This document shows positions 40,945 through 56,573 of a stretch of 64,000 nucleotides of DNA, in pieces (positions within the stretch are counted from its first letter, which is position 1; each line of letters opens with the position of its first letter). A program made the translations under genes and the position numbers. Source of the stretch: Escherichia phage NJ01. The notes under the pieces were generated by a model. That model saw only the letters and a list, made by a program, of their open reading frames with translations. It was not told the DNA's origin and made no database searches. The stretch lies in the sequence record NC_018835.1, one strand, 5' to 3'.

Positions 40945-40966
40945 AAAAAAGCCACCCGAAGGTGGC
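40945..40966 (-). terminator. rho-independent terminator (minus strand)
   Basis: Minus strand GCCACC-TTCG-GGTGGC followed by TTTTTT. Confidence 0.5.
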
Positions 40967-40988
40967 TAAGCTATAACAAGGAGAGTTA

Positions 40989-41735
40989 TTAGAATGGGCT
41001 ATCGTTGTCGTCTTCGTAAGTAGAAGCAGGCTCTCTATCAATCGTAGGGATTGAAGGAGTAGCTTCTTTCTGTTCTGTCTCAGAAGCACGAGTAATTTCA
41101 CGACCAGCCAGAGGCATGTTCTTAGCGTCATTAGCTTGAGTAAGCAGGTTGCGCTGGAACGGGAACATCAGTTGATAGGATGCTACGTTCTCATCGGTTT
41201 CAGCATACGGTTCGAAGAATACCAGAGGACTACGAGCTTCACCAACTGCTGCACGATATTTGGTTGGGATTGGAGAAATGGTTTTGATGGAGTTTTTAAC
41301 TTCACCAGCTTTATTAGTGTAAGAGTTAACCAGAATGTTGACAGGCTGACCTAACAGTACATCCTTAAACCAAGACAGATCACCTTTCAGTGCTTGAATG
41401 CTTGGGTCAATCATCTTGCAGAGATCAAGGATACCAGAGTTCTTAGCTCGTGGGTTTACATCATAGCTCTTGAACTGGCAAGCAGGACGTGGTTCTAATG
41501 CCTTACCATCGGAATCTTTACCAGTAGCATCAACACCAATCAGCTCGAAAGCCAAATCCATACGGAAAGCTGGATTCTTAGGAGTTACTGCTTTGGTCTT
41601 CGGGTCAATCCAAGGGTCACGATTGTGAACACCCAAACCTACTACACGAACAATACGTGCTTCGTACTCGCCATCAGGGATAATGTCGTAGTTGGATTTA
41701 CGAGAAGAAGTTGCGATAGTTGGAATCATAGACAT
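40989..41735 (-). CDS. putative single-stranded DNA-binding protein
   Basis: Acidic C-terminal tail ending EDDNDSPF (SSB/gp2.5-like tail with terminal Phe); first gene after large intergenic region. Confidence 0.45.
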   Translation of the reverse strand: MSMIPTIATSSRKSNYDIIPDGEYEARIVRVVGLGVHNRDPWIDPKTKAVTPKNPAFRMDLAFELIGVDATGKDSDGKALEPRPACQFKSYDVNPRAKNSGILDLCKMIDPSIQALKGDLSWFKDVLLGQPVNILVNSYTNKAGEVKNSIKTISPIPTKYRAAVGEARSPLVFFEPYAETDENVASYQLMFPFQRNLLTQANDAKNMPLAGREITRASETEQKEATPSIPTIDREPASTYEDDNDSPF

Positions 41736-50564: not shown

Positions 50565-51221
50565 TTAACTCTCCAAAGTTTTCTTCAGAGCTGCCCACGA
50601 GATTGGGTAGAGTTTAGCCATCTCTTCATCCAGAGATTGAGCAAACACTCGAACTTCATACTGAGCATGGGAGGATAGTCGCTGACGACACAACTCAAAC
50701 CAGCCATACAAAGAACCAGTCCACACCCACTCAGTGATCATTCCCTGAGGAAGAACAAATCGGGCTTGTTCTGGTGCAACGAATTCAATCAACTTGTCAT
50801 ATGCTGCTAGAGAAGCTTCATATGCATCGTTAATCAACATTAATGCTTCAGCTCGTTCTCCATCGATGAGTTGAACCCCTGAACCTGCATGGAGGTCCGA
50901 AGGTCTCGCAAAAATCTCTTTAGGGATGAAGACTTCAACTGCTCCATCTTTATACCGCCGGGACATTTCGTTCCACGAGAATCCAACCTGATGCTTGCCC
51001 AACTGTCTCGCAATTGCGATAGGTGCTTTGCATCGGAAACTGACTTGTGGGTGTCGGAATGGAGTAACATGCTTCTCTCTTGCGAGGAAGTTGATGAGAC
51101 GTTCATCACGTTCATTTAAATCACCTTCACGGGTTACGCCAAAGGAAACTCGAGCTGCGTTTACTACGCTACGATCACTTCCCATAGCTTCGATTAATGT
51201 TGCTTGTAATTGTTCATTCAT
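50565..51221 (-). CDS. thyX: flavin-dependent thymidylate synthase (ThyX)
   Basis: ARQLGKHQVGFSWNEMSRRY matches the ThyX RHR-x7-S-x-NE-x-S-x-RY signature. Confidence 0.7.
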   Translation of the reverse strand: MNEQLQATLIEAMGSDRSVVNAARVSFGVTREGDLNERDERLINFLAREKHVTPFRHPQVSFRCKAPIAIARQLGKHQVGFSWNEMSRRYKDGAVEVFIPKEIFARPSDLHAGSGVQLIDGERAEALMLINDAYEASLAAYDKLIEFVAPEQARFVLPQGMITEWVWTGSLYGWFELCRQRLSSHAQYEVRVFAQSLDEEMAKLYPISWAALKKTLES

Positions 51222-51236
51222 CCGTGAATTTCCTTA

Positions 51237-51446
51237 TTAATATTCTTTTACATAATAAACCACTAAGGTTCCCATCTCTGACAATGTTGATTTATGTAAG
51301 CTTACTTTACTATAAATCTTTGGGGCCATCTTAAGAGCCTTCTTAAAACGGCGAGCATCTTTACGAGTAGCAAAGTGCTCTGTAACAGGTATAGCCGGGT
51401 CTTGGTAGAGGTAATATACCACCGTCCAATATTTTTTCATAATCAA
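51237..51446 (-). CDS. small protein, member of four-copy paralog family
   Basis: Shares TRKDARRFKK core and C-terminal Tyr with 53300..53915 trio. Confidence 0.45.
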   Translation of the reverse strand: MIMKKYWTVVYYLYQDPAIPVTEHFATRKDARRFKKALKMAPKIYSKVSLHKSTLSEMGTLVVYYVKEY

Positions 51447-51715
51447 ACACCTAGGGCAGTAGTTAAGAATGCTTTCAGGTTTGCTTCGGTCTGCATACCA
51501 GAGAGACTATAGTGTGCACCACTATTACGGTCAGGTACAACGAAAGCAGGGATGCTTCTTACACCATACTTAACAGCTTGTTCACGACCATCACCTTCAA
51601 GGATGTTAATCTCTTCTACTTCTACATCGAACTCCTTAACAACCTTCTCAAAGGTAGGAGCCATTGCTTTACATGGAGCACACTGATCACTATAAAACTT
51701 AATCACTTTAGACAT
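51443..51715 (-). CDS. thioredoxin-family protein (start moved to ATG at 51715)
   Basis: CAPC active site (FYSDQCAPCK), cis-Pro region RSIPAF. Confidence 0.65.
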   Translation of the reverse strand: MSKVIKFYSDQCAPCKAMAPTFEKVVKEFDVEVEEINILEGDGREQAVKYGVRSIPAFVVPDRNSGAHYSLSGMQTEANLKAFLTTALGV

Positions 51716-51716
51716 T

Positions 51717-51893
51717 CTATTCCTTGTTAATAAACAGGTTGATATGACGTTGGGTAGCAGGAACAACAATAAAAGATTTATACTGACCTTTTGCTAAGTC
51801 ATGAGCAATCTTCTTTGTCTGACCAAGACCCATCACACAGCCACTAACAATAATGGCGTGTGCTTGCAACTCTTCAGGGAGTTTTAGTTTCAT
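51717..51893 (-). CDS. small protein (58 aa), below ORF-track size cutoff
   Basis: ATG at 51893 with AAGGAA upstream; stop overlaps thioredoxin start (TAGAATG). Confidence 0.3.
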   Translation of the reverse strand: MKLKLPEELQAHAIIVSGCVMGLGQTKKIAHDLAKGQYKSFIVVPATQRHINLFINKE

Positions 51894-51905
51894 TCTTCAG
51901 GTTCC

Positions 51906-52091
51906 TTACAGCATAGCAAGAATGATAATAAGAGGTAATGTTATAGCGAAATTAATAAGAACAGCGCTGCCTAGCTTGATAGCTTTAACATCCTCTTCTG
52001 ATGGGTTTTCTTTAATTGCTAAATTTCGAGCTTTATATATAACAGTACCAATTATTAACGACCACACGGCCCACACAATCAGTGAAATCAT
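51906..52091 (-). CDS. small two-TM membrane protein
   Basis: MISLIVWAVWSLIIGTVIY...INFAITLPLIIILAML. Confidence 0.45.
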   Translation of the reverse strand: MISLIVWAVWSLIIGTVIYKARNLAIKENPSEEDVKAIKLGSAVLINFAITLPLIIILAML

Positions 52092-52100
52092 ATCAAACCC

Positions 52101-52280
52101 TTATGCAGTCAGGAGGTGAAGCAGGAATGGGATAACAACAGCTACGACAACCATGATGGTTGATGCTGTTTGAATCTCACCTTTCTTGTCAGGGGTTTCT
52201 TCAATAAGCTTGCCAGAAGCCCAATAGATACCACCACCAATAAAGACAGCCCAAATACCCCATACGATTGCTGATAACAT
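52101..52280 (-). CDS. small two-TM membrane protein, paralog of 51906..52091
   Basis: Translation MLSAIVWGIWAVFIGGGIYWASGKLIEETPDKKGEIQTASTIMVVVAVVIPFLLHLLTA; track ORF 52142..52396 is another frame. Confidence 0.45.
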   Translation of the reverse strand: MLSAIVWGIWAVFIGGGIYWASGKLIEETPDKKGEIQTASTIMVVVAVVIPFLLHLLTA

Positions 52281-52341
52281 ATATCTATATCCTTATAAAT
52301 AAGTTCGCCCCACCTCGGGTTAGGAGACAGGGCGGAGGTTT

Positions 52342-52953
52342 TTAGTAAGACACATCGCCACTTGAGTGGGACATGTTGCTCTTGACGAAGTAGCAATACT
52401 TGCCAAGACCTTCATTAATTTCTTGAAGCATACTCTGATCAACTGGATAAGTGGCTAAATCACCATCAAACTCATCCATCTTCTCAATAATACACATCAA
52501 GGTCATGCACATATCAGAGAGCATACCGTCCATATCTAGGTCAGCATTACCCTCTGAGAACCAAGCATGGGAGAGATAATTGGCTGCTGTGGCGTCCACT
52601 TTAACACAGTGGTAACGCATACGTTCAGCAATACGATCTCCTACTTGTCGTGCGTAATCTTCCAGCTCATCAAACATACCATGAACACCCTGAAATCCTG
52701 CACCAGAGACGTTCCAATGGTAGTTTTTAGCTTTGATATGCAAGAGTTCCATGTTAGCTTGTAAGCAGCTCAGGATGTGTTCTAGGCTGTTTCCACTAAT
52801 CATACCCTGCATTGTTTCAAGGCGAGAGATTGAAAGCTCGGACCGATCTAACATATTGTATTCGACACGACCAATCTCGGGTAAGTCAAAGACATTCTTA
52901 TGCATTTGGGTTTTCTCCATCAAGTTCAACTGAGTTAGCAACATTACGTGCAA
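52342..52953 (-). CDS. Dps / ferritin-like protein (start uncertain)
   Basis: HIKAKNYHWNVSGAGFQGVHGMFDELEDYARQVGDRIAERM matches Dps ferroxidase helix pair. Confidence 0.6.
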   Translation of the reverse strand: MHVMLLTQLNLMEKTQMHKNVFDLPEIGRVEYNMLDRSELSISRLETMQGMISGNSLEHILSCLQANMELLHIKAKNYHWNVSGAGFQGVHGMFDELEDYARQVGDRIAERMRYHCVKVDATAANYLSHAWFSEGNADLDMDGMLSDMCMTLMCIIEKMDEFDGDLATYPVDQSMLQEINEGLGKYCYFVKSNMSHSSGDVSY

Positions 52954-53227
52954 TATTATCCATTACCTGCTGGGTAATTACGATGCAGTTCTGCGGGTCT
53001 ACTGACTTAGAACGCCCCATTTCAGGGTCATACACCTTAACTCGCTTAGCAGTTGAACCTGTAACCTGAAGAACCTTCAACAGATATCCCTGATTACCAA
53101 TAGACCAAGCAACAACATCACGATTCTTGATAAAGCGACCAAGCATATCACGATGATAAAACTGTTGCATCACCTTGGATTTTGTAATCTCTTCAGTGGG
53201 CGGGGCCACTTTACTCAAATCTAACAT
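52898..53227 (-). CDS. hypothetical protein (109 aa)
   Basis: ORF track; overlaps annotated Dps start. Confidence 0.4.
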   Translation of the reverse strand: MLDLSKVAPPTEEITKSKVMQQFYHRDMLGRFIKNRDVVAWSIGNQGYLLKVLQVTGSTAKRVKVYDPEMGRSKSVDPQNCIVITQQVMDNIARNVANSVELDGENPNA

Positions 53228-53266
53228 AACTCTCTCCTGTAAAATACAAATTCTTATTGTACTCTA

Positions 53267-53275
53267 TATACATTT
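53267..53275 (-). promoter_or_regulatory. variant AAATGTATA element (minus strand)
   Basis: + strand TATACATTT, 40 nt upstream of gene start at 53227. Confidence 0.3.
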
Positions 53276-53299
53276 GAGAGTTACCATATCTACTACCAA

Positions 53300-53509
53300 T
53301 CAGTAATAAATTACTTTAGACATAAAAGAACCCGAGTTAGGGTCTTCGTACCAGCGATGTATATCAGCGCTTTTTACTATTGTGCCCAGAGTCTTCAACT
53401 GTTTCTTAGCAATACGAGCCTCTTTGCGAGTGTCAAACAATTTGATGCTATCTTTTCTCGTGTGTTGATCAAGATCCCAAACAACACGAATCGCCCACAT
53501 CTTTTTCAT
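53300..53509 (-). CDS. small protein, paralog family member
   Basis: W.IRV...TRKEARIAKKQLK...Y-COOH pattern. Confidence 0.5.
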   Translation of the reverse strand: MKKMWAIRVVWDLDQHTRKDSIKLFDTRKEARIAKKQLKTLGTIVKSADIHRWYEDPNSGSFMSKVIYY

Positions 53510-53718
53510 TAGTAATGTACCTTTCCGCTGATATAAACACGACCAGAAGAATACTCCTTGGCCTTATGGATACTGATACTATTGACCACGTCACCAGTAA
53601 GCATAGTCTTTTTAAAATCTCGAGCCTGTTGACGAGTAGGAAGTGCAGTCATAGTCATACCACCTGATGCCCACTTAATCTTTGCTAACCAAAACTGTCT
53701 CATAGTGATTGGTCTCAT
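53509..53718 (-). CDS. small protein, paralog family member
   Basis: TRQQARDFKK core, C-terminal HY; start/stop overlap with neighbours. Confidence 0.5.
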   Translation of the reverse strand: MRPITMRQFWLAKIKWASGGMTMTALPTRQQARDFKKTMLTGDVVNSISIHKAKEYSSGRVYISGKVHY

Positions 53719-53915
53719 TAATAATAAACCTTGCTGTTGGCAAAAAGAGCACCTTCGTTATTCACAATAGCTTTTCCTATTGTAACCTTATTGAGTCTAA
53801 AAGTAGACTTGTATTGGTTTTTGACCCTACGGGCGTGTTCTCGAGTATTAACAAAATCTACAGCTACTAACTCTCCAGTCGTGTTATCATGTACACGAAC
53901 AATCCACTTTTTCAT
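53718..53915 (-). CDS. small protein, paralog family member
   Basis: TREHARRVKNQYK core, C-terminal YY. Confidence 0.5.
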   Translation of the reverse strand: MKKWIVRVHDNTTGELVAVDFVNTREHARRVKNQYKSTFRLNKVTIGKAIVNNEGALFANSKVYY

Positions 53916-54118
53916 TTTACTAAACCCTTCATAAAGTTATAAAGATCATTAGAGGCTTTACCCCATTCAAGGTGCTTCTTATCCATATAGCTCTTACATG
54001 CTTCTTTACTACTTTCGACGCATATATCAAATTGATGACATGCTCGACCAAATGTCATAGCTTTTAATTGAACCTCGGTAGTCAAACCTTTCAGTTCTTG
54101 GAACTCTTCTTCAGTCAT
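53912..54118 (-). CDS. hypothetical protein (68 aa)
   Basis: ORF track. Confidence 0.4.
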   Translation of the reverse strand: MTEEEFQELKGLTTEVQLKAMTFGRACHQFDICVESSKEACKSYMDKKHLEWGKASNDLYNFMKGLVK

Positions 54119-54652
54119 TTACACACCCTTAGATGCAACAACACCTTCAGAGTTATTATAACGACCCTTCACTGCATAGGAATGTTCCCCTGCATGAGAG
54201 TGCTCAAACATCACCATCTGACCAACACGCATACCAGCACGAACTCGTAAGCTATGATGCTTGGTTACGTTGTGGAATTCAAACGTCAGCTTACTGCTAT
54301 TAAATCCAGCATCAGCCCATCCAGCATGTAGGTGGTTCAAACCACAACGAGCCATAGATGAACGAAGAACAAACAGGCTTGAGATATTATCTGGAAGATT
54401 AAACTCCTCCATGGAGTGAGCCAAGAAGAACTGACCCGGAGTGATAACCAAACCCTCTTCAGGAATCTTTACTTCCTTCCACTGAAGATTTTCTTTCGCA
54501 TCAATATCAACGATGCCATCAGCCTGTTCTTCAACAAGGATAGTATCACCAATACGGATATCCACACTAGCAGCGTTAACATACTTATGCTCCGCATCCA
54601 GATAGCCATTGTCAATTACATCGTGCAGTTCAACACTTCCTAGTAAACTCAT
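54119..54652 (-). CDS. dcd: dCTP deaminase (dUTPase superfamily)
   Basis: LRSSMARCGLNHLHAGWADAGFNS matches the dcd SSxARxGL...GxxDxGF motif. Confidence 0.7.
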   Translation of the reverse strand: MSLLGSVELHDVIDNGYLDAEHKYVNAASVDIRIGDTILVEEQADGIVDIDAKENLQWKEVKIPEEGLVITPGQFFLAHSMEEFNLPDNISSLFVLRSSMARCGLNHLHAGWADAGFNSSKLTFEFHNVTKHHSLRVRAGMRVGQMVMFEHSHAGEHSYAVKGRYNNSEGVVASKGV

Positions 54653-54661
54653 TCTTATTCC

Positions 54662-56017
54662 TTAGTTATTTGTTTCCATGTCAAAAGAGATTCCACGACC
54701 CGCTTCATCGGCAAACCGAACTGTACGGGTTTGAGGCTGCAATACTTCAGGGTTATCAGCAACAAAGCGATCAGCGAGACTGCGGCTGACGGTCTCAGCT
54801 AATTCACCATGAGAAGGGATATTAAGATCGGCGAGATTATCAACCACATCTTGGGCCACGTCTTCATCAGTCCATACAGCCCTAACAGGTGCGTTGAAAC
54901 TCTGACCAGAGAACTGGTGACGGCTAACAGTCAAACCATTTGATTGACCATTAGAACGTCTAGACAACCACTGCTCAAATGAATCGCCAGTAACACCAAG
55001 AGCTTCTTCAAAAGATGTTCTACGAGTAGAGCTTAGATTTCGTGCTTCGTTTGCTCGACGTCTTGCAGGGGCTACAAACACCCCTTCAACTGCATTGTGC
55101 CGATTAGGTTCATCTTCTCGACCAAGGAGATCTCCTCCTGTATTAGTTGTTAAGTTTGTTAACCCTTCAGACCAATACGCATGAATTCGGCTAGAGCCAT
55201 GAAGACTTGACATTAACTGAATCTCTTCGTAAGGTATACCAAAGAATAGACTCATGTCTCGGTCAACACAATACGAGGGACTTGTCGTATCCTCAACATA
55301 AGTAACCTGACCCCGTTCATCGACCAGATGATTAATCGGTTGAGGTGTAGGGAGGTATCGAGAGTGGGCCATATATTGATATGCAACAGATGGAGCTGAG
55401 AATCTTAACACTTGTGAATTAGGCCACTTTTTGTGAACGTATCTGATTTCACGACTAGAAACAACCACAGGGCAAGGAGCGGTCATAGCTAAATATCCAT
55501 GAGGAGTCATGAATAGGTTGTCAAGAGTCATCGCACCACGGCACATCATAGGAAAATTATCCAATACCTCTTCAATAGAAGTAGGATAATTAAACATGAA
55601 TTGAATGCGGGTTCCATTCCACTGAAACTCAATAATATCAGTGAATGTTAATTGAGAACCCCCAGCATATGATTCGTTTGTAGCTTCAGCAAGAAGGGAT
55701 GCATACTCGATATCTTGTGATTCAAGCCACTCTTTCACATTGCTTTCAATCTCTCGTCCAAGAGCTTGCCAATGATCAACTGTAGTGAAAGTATTTTGAG
55801 TCCCTGGCGTCTGTCCTCTGACAACGAAGATATCAATATCGTGAGGTGCTATGTTATTAAGCACGGCATCACGAACAGCCCCACCAGTAATGATAGGGCA
55901 AATGCCGTCTGGAATCAAGTTGTTGTTAATCAACTGTTCAATGAAGTGACGACCAACAGTGATATCAGGTTGTTGAGCAACCTTATCTTCAATTTGGTTA
56001 ATCGGGATAACAATCAT
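54662..56017 (-). CDS. Pol-beta-superfamily nucleotidyltransferase with CCA-adding-enzyme-like head domain
   Basis: ITGGAVRDAVL...PHDIDIF (GGxVRD ... DxD) near N-terminus after start at 56017 (MIVIPINQ); long C-terminal region without recognised motifs. Confidence 0.5.
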   Translation of the reverse strand: MIVIPINQIEDKVAQQPDITVGRHFIEQLINNNLIPDGICPIITGGAVRDAVLNNIAPHDIDIFVVRGQTPGTQNTFTTVDHWQALGREIESNVKEWLESQDIEYASLLAEATNESYAGGSQLTFTDIIEFQWNGTRIQFMFNYPTSIEEVLDNFPMMCRGAMTLDNLFMTPHGYLAMTAPCPVVVSSREIRYVHKKWPNSQVLRFSAPSVAYQYMAHSRYLPTPQPINHLVDERGQVTYVEDTTSPSYCVDRDMSLFFGIPYEEIQLMSSLHGSSRIHAYWSEGLTNLTTNTGGDLLGREDEPNRHNAVEGVFVAPARRRANEARNLSSTRRTSFEEALGVTGDSFEQWLSRRSNGQSNGLTVSRHQFSGQSFNAPVRAVWTDEDVAQDVVDNLADLNIPSHGELAETVSRSLADRFVADNPEVLQPQTRTVRFADEAGRGISFDMETNN

Positions 56018-56018
56018 T

Positions 56019-56573
56019 TTACATTTTCCAATATAATGAAGGTGGGTCGTAAGGGTCAAATCCCGTGAGTTCACACAAGTATTTATAAACCTTAACGGTT
56101 AAGTTAACGTCCTGTTCACAGTAAGTAAACATATCTTCAGTGAAAGCATCCCATGCTTCCTCTTGCTCACCGTAGTCTCCTTTAAGTTCCTCTAAGAACT
56201 CACCCCATTGCTTCAAACCATGACCTCTTGGGCCATGTCTAGGGTCACCTTTCGGATACTCAGGACTGTCACCAATACGGTCAGGTTTAAGATATCGACT
56301 AAGACACAAGGTGTCGAAGACGTTAAAACGATAGTCGATCAGATTGGGATACATCTTCTTCAGAGCACAAAGGTCGAAGTCAATAATATTATGACCTACG
56401 AGCACATCAGCTTCTGTAAGTTTACGAATCCCATCTTCAATTTGGTGAGGCCGATAGCCCCACCTTTCACCAGTTTCAACATCGAAGATGTAAATACACC
56501 ACACTTTAGTTATGTCATCGTACAGTGCATTACTCTCGATATCAAATGCAAACACTTTCTTTTTCTTTACCAC
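56019..56573 (-). CDS. 3'-5' proofreading exonuclease, T7 gp5 N-terminal-domain-like, as a separate gene
   Basis: Exo I FDIESNAL, Exo II HNIIDFD, Exo III YCEQDV; collinear with T7 DNAP N-terminus ([15 protein letters not shown]). Confidence 0.8.

What the first reader, a model, noticed from the sequence alone, without database searches (positions are those of the whole stretch)
51237..53915. Four-member family of 65-70 aa paralogs (three in tandem, one 2 kb away)
ORFs 53718-53915, 53509-53718, 53300-53509 and 51237-51446 share size, a central TR(K/E)xAR(R/I)xKK core and a C-terminal aromatic residue; the tandem trio has overlapping stop/start codons. Multi-copy families of small proteins in phages are often host-takeover or anti-defence factors under diversifying selection.
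Basis: seen in the sequence. Interest (0 to 1): 0.5.

Follow-up and report, generated by a model that had tools for sequence, protein, structure and literature searches.

The report
Small basic paralog family in Kuravirus
The four small genes are true ancient paralogs of an uncharacterised, very basic protein family (PHROG 4939) found only in phiEco32-like coliphages; they most likely bind nucleic acid or another polyanion, but no function has been shown.

Summary
The four minus-strand ORFs are real paralogs. Pairwise identity is 24-38%. A profile built from any three orthogroups finds the fourth at E 1e-10 to 7e-8 among 989 window ORFs; the next best ORF scores 0.35. All four hit PHROG 4939 (unknown function) at E about 1e-26 to 1e-28.

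The window is a Kuravirus (phiEco32-like, closest to phage 172-1). A, B and C are orthologues of phiEco32 gp71, gp70 and gp69.

- **Distribution:** 30 clusters among 1.84 billion representative proteins. Every context read lies in phiEco32-like synteny, after dCTP deaminase or between thioredoxin and ThyX.
- **Copy number:** 1-4. B and C are near-universal and start/stop-coupled; A and D are optional.
- **Protein properties:** all members are strongly basic (pI 9.5-11.1). AlphaFold gives a confident beta-beta-alpha-beta-beta fold with no convincing relative in PDB. An invariant Arg/Arg/Lys motif sits on the single helix.
- **Evolution:** dN/dS is 0.23-0.29, against 0.04-0.09 for neighbouring enzymes. 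C is only 72% identical to phage 172-1 within 98-100% identical flanks.

My best reading is polyanion or nucleic-acid-binding accessory proteins (confidence about 0.4). Host-protein or anti-defence inhibition is the main rival. Function remains untested.

The parts
53718..53915 (-). Paralog A, 65 aa, pI 10.2. It is the orthologue of phiEco32 gp71 and is an optional member (63 phage records).
   Evidence: AlphaFold model has pLDDT 92 with a beta-beta-alpha-beta-beta order.
53509..53718 (-). Paralog B, 69 aa (or 64 aa from the ATG at 53703), pI about 10.4. It is the orthologue of phiEco32 gp70 and is present in all 97 related phage records.
53300..53509 (-). Paralog C, 69 aa, pI 9.9. It is the orthologue of phiEco32 gp69, is near-universal (93 records), and is the most mosaic member.
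   Evidence: AlphaFold model has pLDDT 85.
51237..51440 (-). It sits between thioredoxin and ThyX. It is optional (20 records) and absent from phiEco32.
53716..53720 (-). TAATG stop/start overlap between A and B. An AAGG Shine-Dalgarno sequence lies inside the last codons of A.
53507..53511 (-). TAATG stop/start overlap between B and C. The one-base B/C overlap is kept in 13 of 13 genomes compared.
53267..53275 (-). AAATGTATA, a one-mismatch match to the phiEco32 gp36-sigma promoter element tAATGTAtA. It lies 25 nt after the C stop and upstream of the gp68 homologue, and marks the end of the transcription unit that carries A-B-C.
   Evidence: PMC8948821 lists gene 68 among the six phiEco32 genes with a mapped gp36-dependent promoter.
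54119..54652 (-). Context: dCTP deaminase. The tandem array follows this gene in every related contig examined.
52898..53227 (-). Context: 109-aa gp68 homologue (phrog_10984, unknown function). It always lies immediately downstream of the array and is followed by a Dps/ferritin-like gene.
50565..51769 (-). Context: thioredoxin (51443-51718) and ThyX (50565-51221) flank paralog D. In relatives this slot holds D, an HNH endonuclease, or nothing.

Best explanation
The four genes are ancient paralogs of one lineage-restricted family (PHROG 4939; phiEco32 gp69, gp70 and gp71 plus a fourth type). The proteins are about 65-70 aa, very basic, and fold as beta-beta-alpha-beta-beta.

Most likely they are small polyanion-binding accessory proteins, with DNA or RNA the most probable ligand. 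I infer that an invariant Arg/Arg/Lys motif on the single helix contacts the backbone. I also infer that the variable loops and the C-terminal hairpin give each paralog and allele its own specificity.

A, B and C are made from the distal end of the early/delayed-early operon that also carries the primase-helicase, polymerase exonuclease, nucleotidyltransferase and dCTP deaminase genes. B and C are translationally coupled. D is made from the next unit, with thioredoxin and ThyX.

Shown here: paralogy, distribution, synteny, charge, predicted fold, constraint pattern and mosaicism. Inferred: ligand class, binding surface, translational coupling and any role in replication, gene expression or protection of phage nucleic acid.
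For: - **Family is real and restricted.** There are only 30 clusters at E <= 1e-3 among 1.84 billion representatives. All 99 closer homologues fall into the four orthogroups. The five most distant members traced lie in the same synteny: four after dcd and before gp68 and ferritin/Dps, and one between trx and thyX.
- **Positive charge is a family-wide property.** All 46 diverse members, only about 25-30% identical to each other, have pI 9.47-11.1, net charge +5 to +12 and about 20% Lys+Arg. This is expected for polyanion binders and unusual for divergent protein-protein inhibitors.
- **Conserved residues.** Across 42 diverse members the invariant columns are W5, R28 and R32. T27, A31, K35 and the terminal Tyr are conserved at >= 90%. 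W, A and Tyr fit core or packing positions, which leaves the basic helix residues as the conserved candidate surface. This is my inference from strand and helix periodicity; I could not see model coordinates.
- **Constraint pattern.** The helix is the most constrained segment, with pN/pS 0.13-0.32 against 0.36-0.64 elsewhere.
- **Fold.** Two independent AlphaFold models give the same compact alpha+beta fold: C at pLDDT 85 and A at pLDDT 92.
- **Coupling.** The B/C TAATG overlap is kept in 13 of 13 genomes.
Against: - Basic charge alone does not prove nucleic-acid binding.
- Fast evolution, allele swapping and variable copy number fit host-interaction proteins at least as well.
- B and C allele types occur in several combinations: B1/Ca, B1/Cb, B1/Cc, B2/Ca and B2/Cb. 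There is therefore no sign of co-evolving heterodimer surfaces.
- No expression or protein data exist for these genes. They are absent from the SU10 mass-spectrometry list, although small Lys/Arg-rich proteins are hard to detect by that method.
Confidence: 0.4

Rival explanations
1. They are protein-binding modulators: host-takeover or anti-defence inhibitors. Each paralog or allele docks on a different host or defence protein, using the basic helix against an acidic patch.
For: - Variable copy number and optional A and D.
- dN/dS 3-6 times that of neighbouring genes.
- Allele replacement of C and B within near-identical flanks.
- Position at the end of the early unit.
- Gordonclarkvirinae are reported as remarkably resistant to restriction-modification systems, with no known modification pathway or restriction inhibitor (PMC11990801).
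Against: - Net charge of +5 to +12 is conserved in all 46 diverse members. This excludes the acidic DNA-mimic class (Ocr, ArdA, Ugi, p56) and is not expected if the targets differ.
- B and C are near-universal and under purifying selection.
Confidence: 0.3
2. They are accessory or regulatory subunits of the phage nucleotide-supply enzymes (dCTP deaminase, ThyX, thioredoxin), for example assembly or allosteric factors of a dNTP-synthesising complex.
For: The placement is strictly conserved. The array lies directly after dcd in all related contigs, and the extra copy lies between trx and thyX.
Against: - The enzymes are highly conserved (dN/dS 0.04-0.09), while these proteins diverge 3-6 times faster and swap alleles.
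- D is missing from most genomes that keep trx and thyX.
- Salmonella phage 7-11 keeps dcd, trx and thyX, but its only weak family member lies elsewhere.
- Synteny in a phage operon is weak evidence of physical association.
Confidence: 0.1
3. They are packaged internal or DNA-condensing virion proteins: basic proteins injected with, or coating, the genome.
For: Small size and very high positive charge.
Against: - They are encoded in the early/middle leftward units, not the late structural cluster.
- They were not among the 34 proteins detected in PEG-concentrated SU10 particles, although several non-structural middle and early proteins were.
Confidence: 0.05
4. The similarity is compositional coincidence, or the ORFs are not genes.
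For: None beyond their short length and Lys/Arg richness.
Against: - Leave-one-orthogroup-out profile E values of 1e-10 to 7e-8, against 0.35 for the best other ORF.
- PHROG hits at E about 1e-26 to 1e-28.
- Intact orthologues under purifying selection in about 100 genomes.
- Confident AlphaFold folds.
Confidence: 0.01

Closest known systems
PHROG 4939 / phiEco32 gp69, gp70, gp71 (phi32_69 to phi32_71) and their orthologues in Kuravirus, Suseptimavirus and Nieuwekanaalvirus
   Same: Direct membership. All four window proteins and all 42 diverse relatives hit this PHROG end to end. A and D are 100% identical to phage 172-1 proteins.
   Different: The PHROG and all GenBank records say only 'hypothetical' or 'unknown function'. 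I found no paper that mentions these genes or their paralogy. The window carries the less common four-copy state.
Small basic nucleoid-associated or architectural proteins encoded by paralog pairs (HU alpha/beta, IHF alpha/beta; archaeal Sso7d/Cren7). This is a functional analogy drawn from general knowledge.
   Same: Size of 60-100 aa, pI about 10, paralogous genes, and a plausible polyanion-binding role.
   Different: The fold differs: HU/IHF has a helical body with beta arms, and Sso7d is SH3-like. There is no sequence or structure match. DNA binding is not shown here.
PsaD (photosystem I subunit II), the closest solved structure
   Different: Foldseek E is 0.2, identity is 8-14%, and TM-score normalised to the target is about 0.3. 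The biology is unrelated. This is a generic fold resemblance, not evidence of homology.
Multi-copy small early-gene families of lytic phages (host-takeover or anti-defence 'accessory' genes, as a general kind)
   Same: Small size, tandem paralogs, variable copy number, faster evolution than neighbours and allele swapping.
   Different: Two of the four (B and C) are near-universal core genes. All members are strongly basic. No target or phenotype is known.

Membership tests
PHROG 4939 (uncharacterised phage protein family) | Significant full-length match to the family profile | tested here: met
   E 9.5e-26 to 2.7e-28, covering profile positions 1-67 of 67 (2-67 for A), for all four. 42 of 42 diverse relatives also match.
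PHROG 4939 (uncharacterised phage protein family) | Orthology to phiEco32 gp71, gp70 and gp69 in conserved synteny (dcd - array - gp68 - Dps) | tested here: met
Acidic DNA-mimic anti-restriction or UDG-inhibitor proteins (Ocr, ArdA, Ugi, p56) | Strongly acidic surface that mimics DNA phosphate spacing | tested here: not met
   pI is 9.8-10.4 with net charge about +7 for the four, and pI 9.47-11.1 family-wide. The p56 Foldseek hit at E 2.0 is noise.
HU/IHF-type histone-like proteins | HU/IHF fold (Pfam Bac_DNA_binding) or a sequence match | tested here: not met
   No Pfam, NCBIfam or PDB sequence hit. The predicted beta-beta-alpha-beta-beta topology differs.
RNase H1 N-terminal hybrid-binding domain (Pfam PF01693) | Pfam match above the gathering score | tested here: not met
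   One of 42 members hit it, at E 0.15.
PsaD-like fold | Significant structural superposition over the whole domain | tested here: inconclusive
Nucleic-acid-binding proteins (functional class) | Demonstrated binding to DNA or RNA | not testable with these tools
   Only indirect evidence: conserved positive charge and the invariant Arg/Arg/Lys helix motif.
Genes under diversifying (positive) selection | dN/dS > 1 over the gene or a region | tested here: not met
   Gene-wide dN/dS is 0.23-0.29 and the regional maximum is 0.64. Site-level tests were not possible with 7-13 sequences.

The most novel reading that the evidence does not exclude
The family is a new fold class of small basic proteins that bind phage DNA or RNA, or nucleic-acid-handling host enzymes. 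It would be the missing explanation for why Gordonclarkvirinae resist restriction-modification and most tested defence systems without any known DNA modification or inhibitor. The swappable alleles and optional copies (A, D) would tune which defences are evaded.
Probability: 0.12. Interest if true: 0.75.

Novelty: new member of a known kind. Interest (0 to 1): 0.4.

Why it matters
Kuravirus-like phages are common, have a broad host range and are used in therapy-oriented work. They are reported to be unusually resistant to bacterial immunity for unknown reasons (PMC11990801).

This family is specific to that lineage. It includes two near-universal genes and two optional ones, has no recognisable fold relative, and changes alleles faster than its surroundings. 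That makes it a compact, easily testable candidate set for DNA- or RNA-binding or host-interaction functions.

If instead it proves to be an ordinary architectural nucleic-acid binder, the value is limited to annotating about 300 hypothetical genes in about 100 genomes.

Tried and rejected
- **Sequence libraries.** Pfam, NCBIfam and PDB sequence searches of single proteins and of profiles gave nothing.
- **Searches with distant members.** tblastn of P0112 and P0116 against phage records found no match. IMG/VR scans gave nothing for P0116 and one false positive for P0112, inside a 375-aa ORF of a phi29-like contig.
- **Literature.** No paper mentions phi32_69, phi32_70, phi32_71 or phrog_4939. 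The SU10 and Kuravirus pangenome papers do not discuss the family. The two primary phiEco32 papers (PMC2587145, PMC3275717) are not held. My first paper search was badly framed and useless.
- **Signals.** The sigma-70 promoter and terminator scan around the array found nothing above the shuffled expectation that bears on the genes.
Full report
**What the window is.** A 3.2-kb stretch around the finding is 96.8% identical to Escherichia phage 172-1. It is 92-98% identical to many other Kuravirus genomes (Gordonclarkvirinae, phiEco32-like prolate podophages). All genes in this part of the window are on the minus strand.

**Check of the observation.** The four ORFs exist as stated.
- The four-way alignment shows 26-28% identity to A, with eight invariant columns: the initial Met, a Trp in the first strand, T-R-x-x-A-R-x-x-K, and a terminal Tyr.
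- Pairwise BLASTP gives 24-38% identity and E 5e-7 to 7e-3.
- All four match PHROG 4939 ('unknown function') over its full length at E about 1e-26 to 1e-28.
- As a stricter control I built profiles from three orthogroups at a time, using sequences from 13 genomes, and searched all 989 six-frame ORFs of the window. The left-out paralog scored E 1e-10, 2.6e-11, 3.3e-11 and 7e-8. The best unrelated ORF scored 0.35 or worse.
- There is no fifth copy in the window.
- The stop/start overlaps are real: TAATG at A/B and B/C, and ATGA between the upstream 68-aa ORF and A.

- D most likely starts at ATG 51440, not TTG 51446. Orthologues start MKKYW.
- B has two conserved candidate ATGs, at 53718 and 53703. 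Only the first gives the overlap with A. An AAGG Shine-Dalgarno sequence inside the last codons of A (and likewise of B) sits 10 nt before the overlapping ATG, so the upstream start is plausible.

**Family size and distribution.** A word-indexed search of 5.8 billion proteins, using the four-sequence profile, returned 99 proteins. All fall into four orthogroups: 41 A, 16 B, 34 C and 8 D. The copies are therefore old, separately maintained lineages.

An exhaustive HMMER search of 1.84 billion cluster representatives found only 30 clusters at E <= 1e-3. All are 47-79 aa and share the same W...TRxxARxxK...H(K/R)...Y pattern.

I traced five of the most distant ones to their contigs. All lie in phiEco32-type synteny. 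Four sit in the array between dCTP deaminase and the 109-aa gp68 homologue and ferritin/Dps-like gene. The fifth, P0116, lies in the slot between thioredoxin and ThyX. Profile searches of those contigs show one to four tandem copies in the array, and further dispersed copies on one contig.

Salmonella phage 7-11 has one weak, apparently unannotated member elsewhere in its genome. BFVD structure hits suggest distant relatives in SE131, GAP52, CsaP_009 and Aeromonas LAh_8. All are uncharacterised.

**Copy number.** In 13 genomes compared, B and C are always present and always overlap by one base.
- A is missing from SU7, ECBP2, PAS59 and EcoN5.
- D is present in 7 of 13. Its slot otherwise holds an HNH endonuclease or nothing.
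- Across the phage collection, B matches 97 records, C 93, A 63 and D 20.
- phiEco32 itself has three: gp71 is A, gp70 is B and gp69 is C.

**Evolutionary rate.** Nei-Gojobori median pairwise dN/dS is 0.23 (A), 0.24 (B), 0.27 (C) and 0.29 (D). The neighbours give 0.04 for dcd, 0.05 for gp68 and Dps, 0.06 for thyX, 0.08 for the polymerase exonuclease and 0.09 for thioredoxin.
- Selection is therefore purifying, but 3-6 times weaker than on the neighbours.
- Within the genes, the helix is the most constrained part (pooled pN/pS 0.13-0.32). The N-terminal hairpin and the C-terminal part are less so (0.36-0.64).
- Against the nearest genome, 172-1, the flanks, A and D are 98-100% identical in DNA. 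B is 90% and C is 72% identical.
- C exists in at least three allele types that differ mainly in the loops and the C-terminal hairpin. B and A each have two. B and C types occur in mixed combinations.
- This is cassette-like allele exchange, not demonstrated positive selection.

**Protein properties.** Each window protein has pI 9.8-10.4 and net charge about +7. All 46 diverse members examined have pI 9.47-11.1 and net +5 to +12. For comparison, putative small ORFs on the same strand of the window have a median pI of 7.0.

AlphaFold2 with family alignments gives confident models for C (pLDDT 85, pTM 0.68) and A (pLDDT 92, pTM 0.78). Both show the same order of elements: a long beta-hairpin, one helix of 12-14 residues that starts at the invariant Thr-Arg, and a second hairpin. 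The C-terminal residues form a bridge back onto the sheet.

From strand and helix periodicity, the invariant Trp, Ala and terminal Tyr look structural. R28, R32 and K35 (usually followed by a second Lys or Arg) would lie along one exposed side of the helix. This is my inference, because I could not inspect coordinates.

**Search for known relatives.** Nothing was found in Pfam, NCBIfam or PDB sequences.
- The best Foldseek PDB hit is E 0.2, again PsaD.
- I treat this as a generic fold resemblance.
- No paper in the library mentions these genes.

**Expression context.** A one-mismatch copy of the phiEco32 gp36-sigma promoter element lies 25 nt after the stop of C. Gene 68 is one of six phiEco32 genes with an experimentally mapped gp36 promoter (PMC8948821). 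The trio therefore ends the long leftward unit that precedes it.

Published class labels differ.
- The SU10 paper calls CDS 69-125 early and CDS 25-68 middle.
- The 7-11 paper calls gp79, which lies further upstream, a middle gene product.

D lies in the next unit. The family was not among 34 proteins detected in SU10 preparations. That is weak evidence, given the proteins' size and composition.

**Interpretation.** The shared, conserved property across very divergent members is a high positive charge plus an invariant Arg/Arg/Lys helix. The rest of the surface varies and is exchanged between phages. I think the most economical reading is a polyanion-binding module, with nucleic acid the most likely ligand and paralog- or allele-specific loops (confidence about 0.4).

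The main rival is binding to host or defence proteins (about 0.3). It is favoured by the accessory-gene behaviour, and by the report that Gordonclarkvirinae resist restriction-modification systems without a known mechanism (PMC11990801). An acidic DNA-mimic mechanism is excluded by the charge.

Lesser rivals are a role as enzyme accessory subunits (about 0.1) and as virion-internal proteins (about 0.05). Chance similarity is refuted.

**Novelty and score.** The sequences are already in about 100 public genomes as 'hypothetical protein', and in a PHROG of unknown function. A and D are identical to 172-1 proteins.

New here are the recognition that they form one four-branch paralog family, its strict lineage restriction and synteny, its charge and fold, and its mosaic evolution.

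I rate it a new member of a known kind (multi-copy small accessory phage proteins), with interest 0.4. It is real and testable, and would matter if linked to defence evasion, but no function is shown.

Noticed in passing
window 51906-52091 (-) and 52101-52280 (-): A second tandem paralog pair: two proteins of about 60 aa, apparently membrane proteins, both phrog_9296 (unknown function). phiEco32 and IMEP8 carry only one copy. dN/dS of the 59-aa copy is 0.23, as high as for the family studied.
   Followed up: partly
window 53912-54118 (-): A 68-aa ORF (phrog_2347, unknown function) lies between dCTP deaminase and paralog A and overlaps A by ATGA. It is absent at this position in phiEco32 and EP335, where A directly follows dcd.
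   Followed up: partly
window 53267-53275 (-): AAATGTATA is a one-mismatch match to the phiEco32 gp36-sigma promoter element. It sits in the 72-nt gap between paralog C and the gp68 homologue, at the position of the experimentally mapped phiEco32 gene-68 promoter.
   Followed up: partly
window 51221-51443, and loci L003, L008, L009, L011: The slot between thioredoxin and ThyX is polymorphic among relatives. It holds paralog D, an HNH homing endonuclease, or nothing. A second HNH insertion site lies just after dcd in EcoN5, O18-011 and contig L014.
   Followed up: partly
window 54662-56074 (-): A large nucleotidyltransferase (phrog_12715, annotated elsewhere as related to class II CCA-adding enzymes) lies next to dcd. 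The BASEL paper speculates that this locus might underlie an unknown DNA modification. However, the phage also encodes ThyX, which argues against simple replacement of thymidine by deoxyuridine.
   Followed up: no
L021 946-1203 (-), which is NC_015938 about 40945-41202 (Salmonella phage 7-11): An apparently unannotated ORF between gp054 and gp055 matches the family profile (E 1.8e-5 within that locus) and contains KTRAEARAHKK. It may be the only 7-11 member, and it lies outside the dcd neighbourhood.
   Followed up: partly
window 53724-53735 and 53515-53526 (-): The conserved C-terminal codons of A and B (AAG GTx xAx TAx TAA) contain the AAGG ribosome-binding site of the next gene. Part of the conservation at the end of the coding sequence is therefore doubly constrained.
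   Followed up: partly
L014 7514-7714 (Logan SRR18173673 contig): A further divergent family member sits just upstream of thioredoxin, at roughly the position held in the window by small ORFs of other families. This gives that phage four copies in three places.
   Followed up: no
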